Assembly (NCBI GenBank): GCA_021787205.1 | Contig: JAJYME010000002.1 | Location: 1-52,694 of the forward strand | Source: a bacterium | GTDB lineage: Bacteria > Patescibacteriota > Minisyncoccia > UBA6257 > Colwellbacteraceae | Length of the DNA stretch: 52,694 nucleotides | Direction: 5' to 3' | Part shown: in pieces, positions 40,701 through 43,473 of the stretch | How positions within the stretch are numbered: position 1 is the stretch's first letter | Layout: each line of letters starts with the position of its first letter | Made by a program: the position numbers and the translations under genes | The notes under the pieces: generated by a model | Database searches by the model: none | Told to the model about the DNA's origin: nothing | What the model saw: only the letters and a program-made list of their open reading frames with translations

Positions 40701-40743
40701 TGTCAAAATACTATCAGAGATTTCAGCAAAACTCAAAAATCCA

Positions 40744-40770
40744 CAAGTTATCCACATTGTGGATAACTTG
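40744..40770. promoter_or_regulatory. 27-bp perfect palindrome containing two convergent perfect DnaA boxes
   Basis: CAAGTTATCCACA-T-TGTGGATAACTTG (TTATCCACA at 40748-40756, TGTGGATAA at 40758-40766). An extra ATCCACA lies at 40737-40743. Confidence 0.75.
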
Positions 40771-40870
40771 TGTCATTCTGTCGCAAAATATACCGTCACT
40801 CAATTCTCAACCTTCCCCTGATCGGCAAGCCAGGATAGGTCGTTTCCAACAAACAAGCTAGGAGAACCGG

Positions 40871-40957
40871 TGACAGCGCCTGGCGATGACAAACCACAAT
40901 GACTGACAAGCTTGTGACAAGGCGGTGACAAGATGGTGACAATGGAGTCTTGTCACA
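40871..40957. repeat. Cluster of (G)TGACA(A) boxes, three of them phased at exactly 11 bp
   Basis: TGACA at 40871, 40887, 40904, 40915, 40926 and 40937, and inverted (TGTCA) at 40951. A second cluster lies at about 41296-41425. Confidence 0.8.
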
Positions 40958-41109
40958 AACTTGTGGCCAATTCCTTTGACATTAGGAGTGAAGGATAAGA
41001 CAAATGACAAAAAAGACGAGTTCTTTTTGAACTCTGTTTACACATTTTGTTTTCACATGTCGCAAAATAATGTGTAAACAAAATGTGTAAACAGCAATAG
41101 TAAAAGTAA

Positions 41110-41133
41110 AAAATGTTTGCCGGCAAACATTTT
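41110..41133. repeat. 24-bp perfect palindrome AAAATGTTTGCC|GGCAAACATTTT
   Basis: Read directly from the sequence. Outer arms TGTTT...AAACA match the architecture of the parS consensus TGTTTCACGTGAAACA. Confidence 0.9.
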
Positions 41134-41224
41134 GAAACAAAAAACAGGCAAAGCGTGTGTAAACGGCAAACATCATCCCCTGTTTTTGTGTAAACAGCAA
41201 ACACTTTGTCCAAAAATACGCTAA

Positions 41225-41824
41225 AAGTGTTTGACGTTTACACACCTGCCGTTGTTTTTGTGGAAACAGTGTGTAGACGGCAAACACTGATCCCCCTCGT
41301 TGACAGTGACAAAGCCGTTGACAAGAGAGCTGACAATACCAGTGTCAAAGCAAAAAGACAAGACAAAGACCAAGCTCCGGACAGTGAAAAGGAAAAAGAG
41401 ACGTGTAAAAAGAGGGGGTGACAAAAAACAAGAAGTGTTTGACGTTTACACACCTGCCGTTTTTTTGTGGAAACAATGTGTAGACGGCAAACATTTTGTG
41501 CAGAAAAAAGATATAAGTGTTTGACGTTTACACACCTACCTTTGTTTTTGTGGAAACAGTGTGTAGACGGCAAACAAAAAGATCAAGAACAAACAAGGAG
41601 TGTGTAGACGGCAAACATTTTGTGCAGAAAAAAGATATAAGTGTTTGACGTTTACACACCTGCCTTTGTTTTTGTGGAAACAGTGTGTAGACGGCAAACA
41701 AAAAGATCAAGAACAAACAAGGAGTGTGTAGACGGCAAACATTTTGTGCAGAAAAAAGATATAAGTGTTTGACGTTTACACACCTGCCTTTGTTTTTGTG
41801 GAAACAGTGTGTAGACGGCAAACA
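41225..41824 (+). repeat. Array of iteron-like units. One 62-bp unit, one 82-bp unit, two full 124-bp tandem units and one truncated unit.
   Basis: Units start at 41225, 41433, 41515, 41639 and 41763 (AAGTGTTTGACGTTTACACACCTGCC...). Seven perfect TGTGTAGACGGCAAACA boxes, plus two variants upstream (41156, 41187) and five inverted partners TGTTTGACGTTTACACA. Confidence 0.92.
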
Positions 41825-41830
41825 CCAGTC

Positions 41831-41864
41831 AGCAGAAAATGTTTGCCGACAAACATTTTCTGCT
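41831..41864. repeat. 34-nt palindrome/hairpin AGCAGAAAATGTTTG-CCGA-CAAACATTTTCTGCT
   Basis: 15-bp perfect arms. Shares the core AAAATGTTTGCCG.CAAACATTTT with the palindrome at 41110. Confidence 0.9.
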
Positions 41865-41904
41865 CTTCCGTGATATACTAGAGAGAGACATCCATTAATG
41901 ATAA

Positions 41905-41914
41905 GGGGGGGGGG
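41905..41914. repeat. G10 homopolymer tract
   Basis: ATAAGGGGGGGGGGACAC, 55 nt upstream of the yraN start. Confidence 0.9.
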
Positions 41915-41969
41915 ACACTAATTATTTTGCGACAGTATTAACGGATGCTAACGAAATAAAAAATAACAA

Positions 41970-42350
41970 ATGTCAAGCAAAGACGTGGGTGATTTGGGCG
42001 AGAGCTTAGCCGTCGATTATCTGCAAAAGAAGGGTTGCAAAATCATTGCAAGAAACTGGCGTTGCAGATTCGCCGAGCTGGATATCATAGCCACAGATCC
42101 CGACAATACCCTCTTGATCGTGGAGGTTAAAAGCTCAAAAACGATAATTGACAAAAGTGCCGATTTCTTTCCTGAAATTCACTTTAACGCAACCAAAAGA
42201 AATCGGGTAAGGGCGGCGGGGCTTTACTACGCGAACGCCCAAAAAGATCCGACTAACAAGGATGGGGGTTTCAGGGTCGACCTGATATGCGTCGACATCG
42301 ATCAGGATAAAAAAGGATTCCGGATAAGGCATTATAAAAACGTCACCTAA
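41970..42350 (+). CDS. yraN: YraN-family (UPF0102) putative endonuclease
   Basis: GESLAVDYLQKKGCKIIARNWRCRFAELDIIA...LLIVEVKS matches the YraN/PD-(D/E)xK pattern. Confidence 0.85.
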   Translation: MSSKDVGDLGESLAVDYLQKKGCKIIARNWRCRFAELDIIATDPDNTLLIVEVKSSKTIIDKSADFFPEIHFNATKRNRVRAAGLYYANAQKDPTNKDGGFRVDLICVDIDQDKKGFRIRHYKNVT

Positions 42351-42400
42351 GGACAAAAAAATATTTACAAATAACAAAAAATGTTTAACATATCAAACAT

Positions 42401-42667
42401 ATGCCAAGAACTAAATCCGCTAAAAAAGCGCTCAGGCAATCAATTACCAAAAAAGAACACAATATCGAAAAGAATAAGGTTCTTAAAAGCGTAATTAATA
42501 CATACAAAAAAGCTGCCGCTTCCGGTAATACCAAAGAAGCTGCAGAAATGTTGCCTAAGGTTTATAAGACTCTTGATAAAGCGGCTAAAACCAATCTTAT
42601 TAAAAAGAATAAGGCTAATCGCTTAAAAGGAAGATTAACAAAGACCATAAACAAAAAAACCGCCTAG
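42401..42667 (+). CDS. rpsT: 30S ribosomal protein S20
   Basis: MPRTKSAKKALRQS... 88 aa, basic helical protein typical of S20. Confidence 0.92.
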   Translation: MPRTKSAKKALRQSITKKEHNIEKNKVLKSVINTYKKAAASGNTKEAAEMLPKVYKTLDKAAKTNLIKKNKANRLKGRLTKTINKKTA

Positions 42668-42681
42668 TTGGCGGTTTTTTA
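42655..42681 (+). terminator. Bidirectional terminator (rpsT / holA-like)
   Basis: AAACCGCC-TAGTT-GGCGGTTT followed by TTTT. Confidence 0.8.
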
Positions 42682-43473
42682 TTTCAGGGCAAAATCTAAT
42701 AAGACCTCTTCGTAATTCAAGTTGCCTGATTTGACAGCAACATCATAATCGGCAAAACGAGCATACCAATCTTCAGCTCTTTCAGATTTGGGAGCCGTAG
42801 CGCTCAGGAGATTAAAAGCGTGCCCGGCGTCGGCATCCAGATAGGAAAAGATTATTTCGAGATAGAACATCTTTTCGGCTCTGGTTTTAGAGTAGCGGAG
42901 TTTGCTAATGGCAGAGAACAGCTCATAGCCCGAGTAATCATCCTTCTGGATATTCTCATGGGAAAAGGAGAGGCGGTCAATTTCATTAACCATCCCGGTA
43001 AGATCGTTTCCGAAACTCTCGATCATACTCGAAGCATCGGAATCAGTCAGGGACAAACCTCTTCTTCTGGCCTCCTTCTGGATAAAATCCACCAAAGAGC
43101 GACTTTCAGGAACCGAAAATTCCTTAGTAATTGAAGCCTCCGAGAGAAGGGCATTGAACTCAGCCGGAAGTTTGGTGGCCGAGATGAGAATGACGTTCCT
43201 TTCATCCTTTTTGACCAATTCCAGCAGAGTGAGGAAATCTTTAAGATCTGATTTCCCCAGGGTAGCAGAATCAAATCCTTGAAAGGAACAAAGCTTTATA
43301 GGGCTGAAAAAGGAGAAGTTTCTGACAAAATCGACAACCTCTGGAAGGGAGTTCTCGGGAAAAGAGAACTTCTGGACGCCGAGATTTCCATGTTTTTTAA
43401 CAAACTCATCAACCAAGGCGTTGGCATATCGGGATCTCTCAAACTCATTGTCTCCGGAGAGTAAAATCAGCAT
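42679..43473 (-). CDS. holA: DNA polymerase III delta subunit-like protein (short)
   Basis: 264 aa. The MLILLSGDNEFERSRY N-terminus and overall helical pattern resemble short HolA proteins. No sharp motif, so this is tentative. Confidence 0.55.
   Translation of the reverse strand: MLILLSGDNEFERSRYANALVDEFVKKHGNLGVQKFSFPENSLPEVVDFVRNFSFFSPIKLCSFQGFDSATLGKSDLKDFLTLLELVKKDERNVILISATKLPAEFNALLSEASITKEFSVPESRSLVDFIQKEARRRGLSLTDSDASSMIESFGNDLTGMVNEIDRLSFSHENIQKDDYSGYELFSAISKLRYSKTRAEKMFYLEIIFSYLDADAGHAFNLLSATAPKSERAEDWYARFADYDVAVKSGNLNYEEVLLDFALK

What the first reader, a model, noticed from the sequence alone, without database searches (positions are those of the whole stretch)
41110..41864. Two related parS-like palindromes bracket the iteron array
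AAAATGTTTGCC|GGCAAACATTTT (41110-41133, perfect 24-mer) and AGCAGAAAATGTTTG-CCGA-CAAACATTTTCTGCT (41831-41864) share the core AAAATGTTTGCCG.CAAACATTTT. They sit at either end of the repeat array.
- Their outer arms TGTTT...AAACA are those of the canonical ParB site TGTTTCACGTGAAACA. The central bases differ (GCC/GGC instead of CAC/GTG).
- A weaker relative (ATGTTT-AACATATC-AAACAT) overlaps the rpsT promoter at 42381-42399.
- These could be divergent centromere or Noc-like sites, operators of a dimeric regulator, or cruciform-forming boundaries of the array.
Basis: partly seen in the sequence, partly recalled or inferred. Interest (0 to 1): 0.62.

Follow-up and report, generated by a model that had tools for sequence, protein, structure and literature searches.

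The report
Drifted parS centromere sites near origin
The two palindromes are most likely this tiny bacterium's chromosome-segregation (parS) sites, whose central bases have drifted from the near-universal bacterial sequence, so they offer a natural case of a centromere sequence changing.

Summary
Both palindromes are real, at the stated coordinates, and far beyond chance. They are the only near-perfect TGTTT-N6-AAACA palindromes in the 616-kb genome. The parS-like reading is supported, mainly by comparison with relatives.

- **Same place in relatives.** In the same Patescibacteria order, the stretch just upstream of yraN-rpsT, 6-15 kb from dnaA, carries tandem arrays of 2-12 such 16-mers.
- **A continuous series of site types.** Some genomes have only canonical TGTTTCACGTGAAACA. 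Others have TGTTTGCCGGCAAACA, exactly the core here. Others have hybrids with one canonical half and one variant half.
- **The binding system is present.** The genome encodes one complete parA-parB operon and no canonical parS, even at two mismatches or fewer.
- **Conservation.** Both palindromes are kept in sister species at about 78% DNA identity, while their flanks diverge.
- **ParB does not track site type.** ParB DNA-contact residues are the same in canonical and variant genomes. The whole order has Ser where ParB normally has Gly201, the residue facing base pair 6.
- **The "iteron" array.** It consists of conserved 17-mers that join a parS half-site to a DnaA-box-like 9-mer. No Rep gene is nearby.
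- **The third palindrome.** The weak site at the rpsT promoter is an accident of a 1-nt deletion.

ParB binding itself is untested.

The parts
41110..41133 (.). Palindrome 1, a variant parS. The core TGTTTGCCGGCAAACA lies at 41114-41129, with 4 further complementary pairs on each side.
   Evidence: Seen. The identical 16-mer occurs in parS-type arrays of G014, G001, G033, G091, G130 and others. It is kept at the same place in sister species L207 (one change) and L208 (GCCGAC form), with diverged flanks.
41831..41864 (.). Palindrome 2, a variant parS. The core TGTTTGCCGACAAACA lies at 41840-41855, within 15-nt complementary arms. Its right arm CAAACA sits where the -35 of the yraN promoter would be.
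   Evidence: Seen. The core is conserved in L035, L037, L036 and L206, while the outer arms change in a compensatory way: AGCAG/CTGCT, TGCAT/ATGCA, GCAC/GTGC.
41156..41824 (.). Array of 14 composite 17-mers, TGTGTA[G/A]AC-G-[G/T]C-AAACA. Nine lie on the + strand, starting at 41156, 41187, 41270, 41477, 41560, 41601, 41684, 41725 and 41808. Five lie on the - strand, at 41228, 41436, 41518, 41642 and 41766. Each joins a DnaA-box-like 9-mer to a parS half-site. The array includes three 124-bp tandem copies (41477-41848).
   Evidence: Seen. The units are conserved in sister species among unalignable spacers. They vary only at position 7 and positions 10-12. The copy number of the 124-bp unit differs in L035, which has one copy.
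41034..41094 (.). A 61-bp dyad: TGTTTACACA-tttt-GTTTTCACA / TGTGTAAACA-aaa-TGTGTAAACA around TGTCGCAAAATA. These are free-standing copies of the DnaA-box-like 9-mer.
   Evidence: (I2) shows 25-nt arms that are 96% complementary. The same arrangement is present in L206, L207 and L208. GTTTACACA...GTTTTCACA also occurs on C6 at two promoter regions.
40742..40772 (.). A perfect 31-bp palindrome holding two consensus DnaA boxes, TTATCCACA and TGTGGATAA, at the start of the RNHCP gene.
   Evidence: Seen (I16). It is conserved in L035, L206, L207 and L208. G006 and G014 have TGTGGATAA..GGGATAA..TGTGGACAA at the corresponding place.
40868..40965 (.). GTGACAA repeats phased at 11 bp. A second, looser cluster lies at 41296-41425. 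The binding protein is unknown.
   Evidence: Seen (period 11, 3.5 copies). Equivalent GTGACA/GTCACA clusters are present in L206-L208.
41871..41879 (+). Extended -10 (TGATATACT) of the yraN-rpsT promoter, 18 nt downstream of the CAAACA arm of palindrome 2.
   Evidence: Read directly from the sequence. The equivalents are TGGTATAAT in L036 and TGGTAGAAT in L206, with a 17-nt spacer after CAAACA. This element is an inference; the promoter scan did not list it.
41970..42667 (+). yraN (UPF0102, 41970-42350) and rpsT (42401-42667). These are the conserved genes that mark the position of the centromere array across the order.
   Evidence: Pfam assignments; synteny.
42381..42399 (.). The weak palindrome ATGTTTAACATATCAAACAT. 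It is not a member; it belongs to the rpsT promoter and leader (-35 TTTACA at 42364, -10 TAACAT).
   Evidence: The window differs from 9 of 9 related contigs by a 1-nt deletion, and that deletion creates the TGTTT arm.

Best explanation
**What the palindromes are.** The two palindromes are the chromosomal parS (centromere) sites of this Patescibacteria genome. Their central hexamer has drifted from CACGTG to GCCGGC and GCCGAC, while the outer arms TGTTT/AAACA are kept.

**How they would work (inferred).**
1. The single ParB is encoded on contig C2, next to parA. It has an LGKGLESLI N-terminus, a GERRLLAAK CTP motif, an HTH and a C-terminal dimerisation domain. It binds each 16-mer as a dimer.
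2. ParB closes as a CTP clamp and spreads over the roughly 1-kb locus, about 13-15 kb from dnaA.
3. ParA, and probably SMC, then act on this origin-proximal nucleoprotein complex to segregate the chromosome.

**Why the variant centre is tolerated (inferred).** ParB of this whole order appears to read half-site positions 5 and 6 loosely. It carries Ser at the position of Gly201, the residue that faces base pair 6. Its other contact residues are identical in genomes with canonical, variant or mixed arrays.

**The units between the palindromes.** These are composite sites. Each joins one ParB half-site to a 9-mer, TGTGTARAC, which is the site of a second protein. DnaA is the best candidate for that protein.

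**Possible effect on transcription (inferred).** The right arm of palindrome 2 overlaps the -35 position of the yraN-rpsT promoter, so ParB occupancy may also damp that promoter.

**Shown versus inferred.** Shown here: sequence, synteny, conservation, the gene set, and the absence of canonical parS. Inferred: ParB binding, relaxed specificity, the identity of the second protein, and the promoter effect.
For: 1. **Significance.** Both sites are real and unique in the genome.
2. **Synteny.** Canonical parS arrays lie immediately upstream of yraN in G013, G008, G026, G027 and G011.
3. **Sequence continuum at that locus**:
   - G014 has TGTTTGCCGGCAAACA and TGTTTGTCGGCAAACA.
   - G006 and G001 mix GCCGGC, GTCGGC, GCCGTG and CACGGC.
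   - Hybrid sites carry one canonical half.
4. **Spread of the variant.** It occurs in 17 of 151 genomes of the order, mostly as tandem clusters with 48-59 bp period. The reversed control pattern occurs in 1 of 151.
5. **Gene set.** There is a complete parA-parB operon with ParB_N, HTH_ParB and ParB_C, and TIGR00180 above its cut-off. Only one ParB-family gene is present. No canonical parS is found at 2 mismatches or fewer.
6. **Origin-proximal position.** dnaA lies 6-15 kb from the array in six relatives. By synteny with G006 and G014, C6 (dnaA-dnaN) continues into the right end of C11.
7. **Conservation in sister species.** Both palindromes are kept in sister species and in L206, with diverged flanks.
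8. **ParB contact residues.**
   - Q162, G170-K171-S172-R173, N178 and R204 are all present, and residue 201 is Ser in 27 of 27 ParBs of the order.
   - Residue 201 is Gly in 26 of 29 ParBs elsewhere in the phylum.
   - PMC7383237 reports that residue 201 faces base pair 6.
   - The same paper reports that Ser at 201 occurs among both parS-specific and NBS-specific (C6-reading) variants.
9. **Half-site variation in the composites.** The half-site part of the composite 17-mers varies at the same positions as parS does in the order. It is the canonical GTGAAACA in one unit of L206.
Against: - No binding data exist.
- The cores match canonical parS at only 12 and 11 of 16 positions. In Caulobacter ParB, a C at position 6 abolishes binding (PMC7383237).
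- No ParB residue tracks site type, so co-evolution cannot be shown. Relaxed specificity is an assumption.
- Only two full palindromes remain here, against 5-12 in relatives.
- The assembly is 96% complete, so a canonical array in a gap cannot be strictly excluded. The syntenic locus itself is fully assembled.
- Covarying outer arms are not expected for a pure protein site and hint at a structural or mutational component.
Confidence: 0.8

Rival explanations
1. The palindromes are operators of a different dimeric transcription factor that regulates yraN-rpsT and/or the RNHCP gene. Their likeness to parS is coincidental or purely historical.
For: - Palindrome 2 overlaps the -35 position of the yraN promoter in the window, L036 and L206.
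- The locus is dense in other regulatory motifs: TGTCGCAAAATA, the GTGACAA repeats and the GTTTACACA boxes.
Against: - The sites are positional and sequence homologues of canonical parS arrays, with hybrid intermediates.
- Relatives carry 5-12 copies, which is unlike an operator.
- The motif occurs nowhere else in the genome.
- No candidate regulator gene is adjacent.
Confidence: 0.07
2. The palindromes matter mainly as DNA structures, either cruciforms or hairpins on single strands. Alternatively, they are products of quasi-palindrome template-switch mutation, without sequence-specific protein recognition of the variant centre.
For: - Outer arms differ between species yet stay complementary.
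- 17 of 70 sites across the order have 4 or more extra complementary flank pairs, up to 12. Shuffled partners give a mean of 2.8 such sites and a maximum of 10 in 2000 shuffles.
Against: - The TGTTT/AAACA arms and the central CG are conserved across dozens of genera, whereas the flanks are free. That pattern points to sequence-specific recognition.
- Many sites in relatives have no extended symmetry.
- The stems are A+T-rich, and no terminator-like or Rfam signal is found.
Confidence: 0.06
3. The whole gap is a replication origin (oriC or a plasmid-type iteron origin). On this view the palindromes are origin elements, such as initiator or DUE-flanking sites, rather than centromere sites.
For: - A perfect DnaA-box palindrome lies at 40742-40772, and 16 GTTTNCACA boxes lie in the gap.
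- The region is about 13-15 kb from dnaA.
- holA is adjacent.
- The cumulative GC skew is near its minimum at 40-49 kb, but the profile is noisy.
Against: - No Rep gene is nearby.
- Consensus DnaA boxes also flank dnaA itself, at C6 26310, 26469 and in the dnaA-dnaN spacer.
- The palindromes do not resemble DnaA boxes.
- An origin function of neighbouring elements would not conflict with the palindromes being parS, because parS sites are normally origin-proximal.
Confidence: 0.05

Closest known systems
Chromosomal ParABS centromere: parS TGTTTCACGTGAAACA bound by ParB/Spo0J (B. subtilis, Caulobacter, Thermus)
   Same: - The site is a 16-bp palindrome with identical outer arms TGTTT/AAACA and a central CG.
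- It is origin-proximal.
- The genome encodes parA-parB with a CTP motif, an HTH and a dimerisation domain.
- Relatives carry the canonical sequence at the same locus.
   Different: - Half-site positions 5 and 6 are G and C (or G and T) instead of C and A.
- ParB has Ser instead of Gly201, and it has a 150-aa Q/P-rich insert after the N-terminal ParA-interaction peptide.
- In this order the sites form dense tandem arrays within 0.3-0.8 kb, rather than being scattered over tens to hundreds of kb.
- In this genome only two full sites remain.
Noc-NBS of Firmicutes (TATTTCCCGGGAAATA)
   Same: It is a ParB-family site that differs from parS in the central part. Position 6 is C, as in the palindromes here. 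It is the documented example of parS specificity change through residue 201.
   Different: - NBS has A at position 1, read by Q173. Here position 1 is G and the protein has R173.
- This genome has a single ParB-family gene, next to parA, and it scores below the Noc model cut-off (214 against 315 bits).
- NBS sites are scattered over the chromosome, not clustered near the origin.
Plasmid centromeres made of tandem repeats (F sopC: 12 x 43 bp, each with a 16-bp inverted repeat)
   Same: The architecture in the relatives is a head-to-tail array of units of about 48-59 bp, each holding one 16-bp palindrome for a ParB-type protein.
   Different: - This locus is chromosomal, uses Type Ia ParB with host parS arms, and shows no plasmid genes.
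- In the window the regular array is replaced by composite 17-mers.
DnaA-box clusters outside oriC (E. coli datA, B. subtilis DBCs)
   Same: The gap holds many DnaA-box-like 9-mers. GTTTACACA and GTTTCCACA match TTWTNCACA at 8 of 9 positions. They are clustered in a non-coding region near the origin, next to consensus boxes.
   Different: - Each 9-mer is fused at fixed spacing to a parS half-site.
- The 9-mer also forms its own palindromes, which suggests a dimeric binder.
- DnaA binding is not shown.

Membership tests
Chromosomal ParABS / parS | The genome encodes ParB with a ParB_N (CTP-binding GERR motif), an HTH and a C-terminal dimerisation domain | tested here: met
   The C2 ORF of 422 aa hits PF02195, PF17762 and PF23552. 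TIGR00180 scores 178 bits against a cut-off of 58. The motif reads IAGERRLLAAK.
Chromosomal ParABS / parS | A ParA (Soj) ATPase is encoded next to parB, and ParB carries the N-terminal ParA-interaction peptide | tested here: met
   A 270-aa ParA lies directly upstream in the same operon. ParB starts MLGKGLESLIPQ. That this motif is the ParA-interaction peptide rests on established knowledge.
Chromosomal ParABS / parS | The site matches the consensus 16-mer TGTTTCACGTGAAACA (usually with 2 mismatches or fewer) | tested here: not met
   The cores match at 12 of 16 (TGTTTGCCGGCAAACA) and 11 of 16 (TGTTTGCCGACAAACA). No site at 2 mismatches or fewer exists anywhere in the genome. This is why it is filed as a variant, not a canonical member.
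Chromosomal ParABS / parS | The site is homologous by position to accepted parS sites in relatives | tested here: met
   Canonical arrays lie upstream of yraN in G013, G008, G026, G027 and G011. Variant and hybrid arrays occupy the same place in G014, G006, G001, G033 and G009.
Chromosomal ParABS / parS | The location is origin-proximal | tested here: met
   dnaA lies 6-15 kb from the array in 6 of 7 relatives checked. The C6-C11 junction inferred by synteny places the array about 13-15 kb from dnaA here.
Chromosomal ParABS / parS | ParB DNA-contact residues are conserved (Q162, G170, K171, S172, R173, N178, G201, R204 in Caulobacter numbering) | tested here: inconclusive
   All are present except G201, which is Ser here and in all 27 ParBs read from the order. 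PMC7383237 calls G201 absolutely conserved in ParB orthologues but finds Ser tolerated.
Chromosomal ParABS / parS | ParB binds the site specifically and loads as a CTP clamp | not testable with these tools
   This needs EMSA or BLI, and clamp cross-linking or ChIP.
Noc / NBS | A second ParB paralogue with Q173, K179/K184 and R201, and A at site position 1 | tested here: not met
   The genome has one ParB-family gene. It has R173, N179, N184 and S201. The Noc model scores below its cut-off. The sites have G at position 1.
Iterons of a Rep-dependent origin | Direct repeats next to a gene for a Rep initiator | tested here: not met
   The neighbouring genes are RNase J, rlmH, RNHCP, yraN, rpsT, holA, fpg and a histidine kinase. 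The locus is chromosomal and syntenic across the order.
DnaA-box cluster | 9-mers that fit TTWTNCACA and are bound by DnaA | tested here: inconclusive
   Two consensus boxes lie at 40748 and 40758. GTTTNCACA (8 of 9) occurs 16 times in the gap, against 14 in the rest of the genome. Binding was not tested, and the motif also forms palindromes.

The most novel reading that the evidence does not exclude
**A drifting centromere under a loosely reading ParB.** In this order of Patescibacteria, ParB carries Ser in place of the otherwise invariant Gly201 and reads half-site positions 5 and 6 loosely. The centromere sequence is therefore free to drift. It has switched repeatedly between CACGTG, GCCGGC, GTCGGC, ATCGAT and even AGATCT centres.

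**A hybrid origin/centromere array.** In this genome most of the array has been rebuilt into hybrid sites. Each pairs one ParB half-site with a DnaA-type box at fixed spacing, so a segregation protein and a replication or regulatory protein would assemble side by side on the same 17 bp.
Probability: 0.25. Interest if true: 0.78.

Novelty: new variant of a known kind. Interest (0 to 1): 0.6.

Why it matters
Chromosomal parS is one of the most conserved DNA motifs in bacteria. Work on how ParB-family specificity changes has relied on the ParB/Noc pair and on mutant libraries.

This locus, with its relatives, gives a natural series within one order:
- canonical, hybrid and fully variant centromere arrays all sit at one syntenic place;
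- ParB proteins share their DNA-contact residues across all these site types;
- all of them carry Ser at the position that discriminates base pair 6.

The series makes two questions directly testable with a handful of purified proteins and oligonucleotides: whether centromere sequence can drift under a permissive ParB, and what Ser201 does.

It also has a practical side. Annotation pipelines and origin or centromere predictors that search only for the canonical parS will miss the centromere in many Patescibacteria. The arrays are also a frequent cause of contig breaks.

Tried and rejected
1. **Composite 17-mer in relatives.** A search of 40 relatives at 1 mismatch or fewer found it only in this genome, plus one copy in G022. 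The unit is therefore genus-level and was useless for wide comparison.
2. **Repeat search upstream of yraN.** The first search looked at the wrong side for minus-strand loci, because genome-search loci are not re-oriented. It was redone.
3. **Metagenome scan with the 17-mer.** Only L105 had two copies and proved related.
4. **ParB residue that tracks site type.** None was found. The HTH is the same in canonical and variant genomes, even within one family, so a specificity switch was rejected in favour of relaxed reading. H202, seen here and in G006 and G014, also occurs in G028, which has canonical sites.
5. **RNA element or terminator.** No Rfam family reaches its gathering score, and the palindromes are not terminator-like.
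6. **Iteron/Rep origin.** No Rep gene is nearby.
7. **Third palindrome at the rpsT promoter.** Rejected as a member.
8. **Literature.** No paper in the library contains the variant 16-mers, and none on parS in Patescibacteria surfaced.
9. **GC skew within the window.** It is too noisy to place an origin.
Full report
**Observation**

The window is the whole contig C11 of a 616-kb, 11-contig, 96%-complete genome. Homologues of its proteins are named by their sources as Patescibacteria/Paceibacterota.

The finding lies in a 1.2-kb ORF-free gap (40758-41969). The gap sits between a minus-strand RNHCP-domain gene and the plus-strand yraN (UPF0102) and rpsT genes.

- Palindrome 1 is a perfect 24-mer at 41110-41133.
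- Palindrome 2 has 15-nt perfectly complementary arms at 41831-41845 and 41850-41864.
- Their 16-bp cores are TGTTTGCCGGCAAACA and TGTTTGCCGACAAACA.
- With up to two mismatches, the pattern TGTTTGYCGRCAAACA matches only these two places in the window. The expected number is 0.07.
- Among all 25 GTTT-N6-AAAC sites in the genome, only these two are near-perfect palindromes.

Two details need correction.

- The half-site CGGCAAACA is not peculiar to the palindromes. It is the right half of the array's own unit, TGTGTARAC-GK-CAAACA, which has 14 copies, all between the palindromes.
- The 'weaker relative' at 42381-42399 exists only because the window has a 1-nt deletion relative to nine other contigs. 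Those contigs read tgttAtaacat, and the sequence is the rpsT promoter.

- The genome has exactly one ParB-family gene. It lies on contig C2 directly after a parA gene.
- This ParB has the N-terminal LGKGLESLI peptide, the GERR CTP motif, and ParB_N, HTH_ParB and ParB_C domains. It passes TIGR00180 and fails the Noc model cut-off.
- No sequence within two mismatches of TGTTTCACGTGAAACA exists anywhere in the assembly.

So there is a complete partition system with no canonical site.

**Relatives**

No genome of the same genus is held, and yraN proteins of the nearest genomes are about 40% identical. Even so, a search for canonical parS in 40 relatives gave an unexpected picture. 13 of the 41 genomes searched (40 relatives plus this one) have it, nearly always as tight tandem clusters of 4-8 sites.

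Comparing coordinates with the yraN hits shows that the cluster lies immediately upstream of yraN in G013, G008, G026, G027 and G001.

Reading the same place in the genomes whose ParB is closest to ours showed arrays of 7-11 palindromes of the type TGTTTG[C/T]CG[G/A]CAAACA. These genomes are G006 (75% identical) and G014 (83% identical), and neither has canonical parS.

- G014 contains the exact 16-mer of palindrome 1.
- Both genomes contain hybrids with one canonical half: TGTTTGCCGTGAAACA and TGTTTCACGGCAAACA.

A catalogue over 13 genomes gives a continuum:

| Genomes | Central hexamers |
|---|---|
| G013, G008, G027 | pure CACGTG |
| G026 | CACGTG with ATCGTG and GACGTG |
| G001 | mixtures of GCCGGC, CACGGC and GCCGTG |
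| G033 | GTCGGT, ACCGGT, GCCGGC |
| G034 | AGATCT, AGAAAT |

The arms TGTTT/AAACA are constant, and the central CG is kept in all but a few sites of G033 and G034. Half-site positions 5 and 6 float.

- Across 151 genomes of the order, the GYCGRC type occurs in 17, in at least nine families, mostly as arrays with 48-59-bp period. The reversed control pattern occurs in one.
- On a ParB tree, our genome, G006 and G014 form a 100/100 clade of variant-site genomes with a canonical-site sister (G024). Elsewhere canonical and variant genomes are interleaved. The centre has therefore changed several times.

**Position on the chromosome**

dnaA lies 6-15 kb from yraN and the array in six of seven relatives checked, and 57 kb away in the seventh.

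Synteny with G006 and G014 shows that the dnaA-dnaN end of contig C6 continues into the right end of C11 read backwards. This places the array about 13-15 kb from dnaA in our genome.

**Conservation at close range**

Contigs carrying an identical RpsT fall into two groups: one at about 99.7% DNA identity and a sister species at about 78%.

- A same-species contig (L035) keeps both palindromes but has one instead of three 124-bp repeats.
- The sister species keeps palindrome 2 with an identical core and different, still complementary, outer arms: TGCAT...ATGCA instead of AGCAG...CTGCT.
- It also keeps palindrome 1, as GCCGGC with one change or as GCCGAC, amid diverged flanks.
- A more distant relative (L206, RNHCP 73% identical) has two full palindromes, GCCGAC and GCTGGC. 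The promoter-proximal one again has its own complementary outer arms, GCAC...GTGC.

**ParB specificity**

According to PMC7383237:

- ParB contacts parS through Q162, G170, K171, S172, R173, N178, G201 and R204.
- Residue 201 faces base pair 6, and G201R lets Noc read C6.
- In the mutant library, Ser at 201 occurs among both parS-specific and NBS-specific binders.

Our ParB has every contact residue except G201, which is Ser. Ser201 is present in all 27 ParBs read from this order, whatever their site type. Among 29 ParBs from other orders of the phylum, 26 have Gly. In that wider sample the clustered sites found are canonical.

No HTH residue distinguishes canonical-site from variant-site genomes, even within one family (G038 against G091 and G130).

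The simplest reading is that this order's ParB reads positions 5 and 6 permissively, which lets the centromere drift. This is an inference: the Ser201 link is a correlation at the level of one clade.

**The array between the palindromes**

Fourteen distinct copies of the 17-mer, from six sources, vary only at position 7 and positions 10-12. Positions 10-12 are the same half-site positions that vary among parS sites in the order.

One unit in L206 reads TGTGTAGAC+GTGAAACA, which contains the canonical half-site. The spacers between units are unalignable between species, so the 17-mers are under selection.

The left 9-mer, TGTGTARAC (reverse complement GTYTACACA), fits the relaxed DnaA box TTWTNCACA at 8 of 9 positions in its TGTGTAAAC form; the more frequent TGTGTAGAC form fits less well (6 of 9 against TTATCCACA). 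It has these other properties:

- It occurs free-standing in a 61-bp dyad at 41034-41094.
- It forms its own palindrome in L036.
- Outside the gap it is found only in two triplets on the dnaA contig, upstream of a VirB4-like gene and a Kef-like gene, and once in the dnaA-dnaN spacer.

I read the unit as a composite of a ParB half-site and the site of a second protein. DnaA is the best but unproven candidate. 'Iteron' is not apt, because no Rep gene is near.

**Extended symmetry**

Seventeen of 70 sites across the order carry four to twelve further complementary pairs, with site-specific sequence. With shuffled partners the mean is 2.8 such sites.

This fits either a role for hairpin or cruciform formation, or quasi-palindrome template-switch mutation that perfects existing palindromes. 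It does not conflict with ParB binding.

**Promoter overlap**

In the window, L036 and L206, the CAAACA arm of the promoter-proximal palindrome lies 17-18 nt upstream of an extended -10: TGATATACT, TGGTATAAT and TGGTAGAAT respectively. ParB occupancy could therefore occlude the -35 region of yraN-rpsT. This is an inference.

**Verdict**

The palindromes are best explained as drifted chromosomal parS sites (confidence 0.8). They are a new variant of a known kind.

- I found no paper containing these sequences, and none on parS in Patescibacteria surfaced.
- ParB binding, the role of Ser201 and the partner of the 9-mer remain to be tested.

Noticed in passing
window 41477-41848 vs L035 3300-3430: The 124-bp tandem repeat is present three times in the window and once in a 99.7%-identical contig from another sample. 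Most public contigs of this species and its sister break inside the array.
   Followed up: partly
window 18720, 19974, 40413, 40779, 41058, 41923: The 12-mer TGTCGCAAAATA occurs six times in the genome, all on this contig (0.07 expected). It is conserved upstream of yraN in L036, L206, G006, G014, G001 and G022. It is probably a promoter-associated protein site.
   Followed up: partly
window 40742-40772: A perfect 31-bp palindrome of two consensus DnaA boxes sits at the start of the RNHCP gene. It is conserved in the sister species and in L206.
   Followed up: partly
window 40868-40965 and 41296-41425: GTGACAA repeats are phased at 11 bp. Equivalent GTGACA/GTCACA clusters occur in L206-L208, and G013 has ATCCGGCAA/ATCCGGAAA repeats at the corresponding place. 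This may be a response-regulator-type site in the origin region.
   Followed up: no
window 41905-41914: A G10 run in the window is G5 in L035 and L037, so the homopolymer length varies between populations.
   Followed up: partly
genome contig C6 4944-4977 and 20911-20952: Triplets of GTTTACACA, GTTTTCACA and TGTGGAAAC boxes lie upstream of a Kef-like antiporter gene and a VirB4-like ATPase gene. They are the only clusters of this box outside the gap.
   Followed up: partly
whole genome: The canonical parS half-site GTGAAACA occurs 7 times, against 22.7 expected from base composition. The variant half CGGCAAACA occurs 12 times outside the gap, against 4.4 expected genome-wide.
   Followed up: no
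genome contig C2, L002 994-2262 (-): ParB has an insert of about 150 aa, rich in Q, P and A, between the N-terminal LGKGLESLI peptide and the ParB_N domain. Relatives have open frames of 283-538 aa, so the insert length is variable.
   Followed up: no
window 42679-43473 (-): The ORF without a Pfam hit is DNA polymerase III delta (holA). TIGR01128 scores 83 bits against a cut-off of 80.
   Followed up: yes
G211 (other order of the phylum), C2:427882, C3:67138, C4:76099, C4:79438: A second palindrome type, TGTTTCGCGCGAAACA, occurs four times dispersed over the genome. The same genome also has a 7-site canonical parS cluster.
   Followed up: no
L003 (G022) 200-600 and L105 6600-7080: In two relatives a small reverse-strand gene is inserted between the repeat array and yraN.
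   Followed up: no
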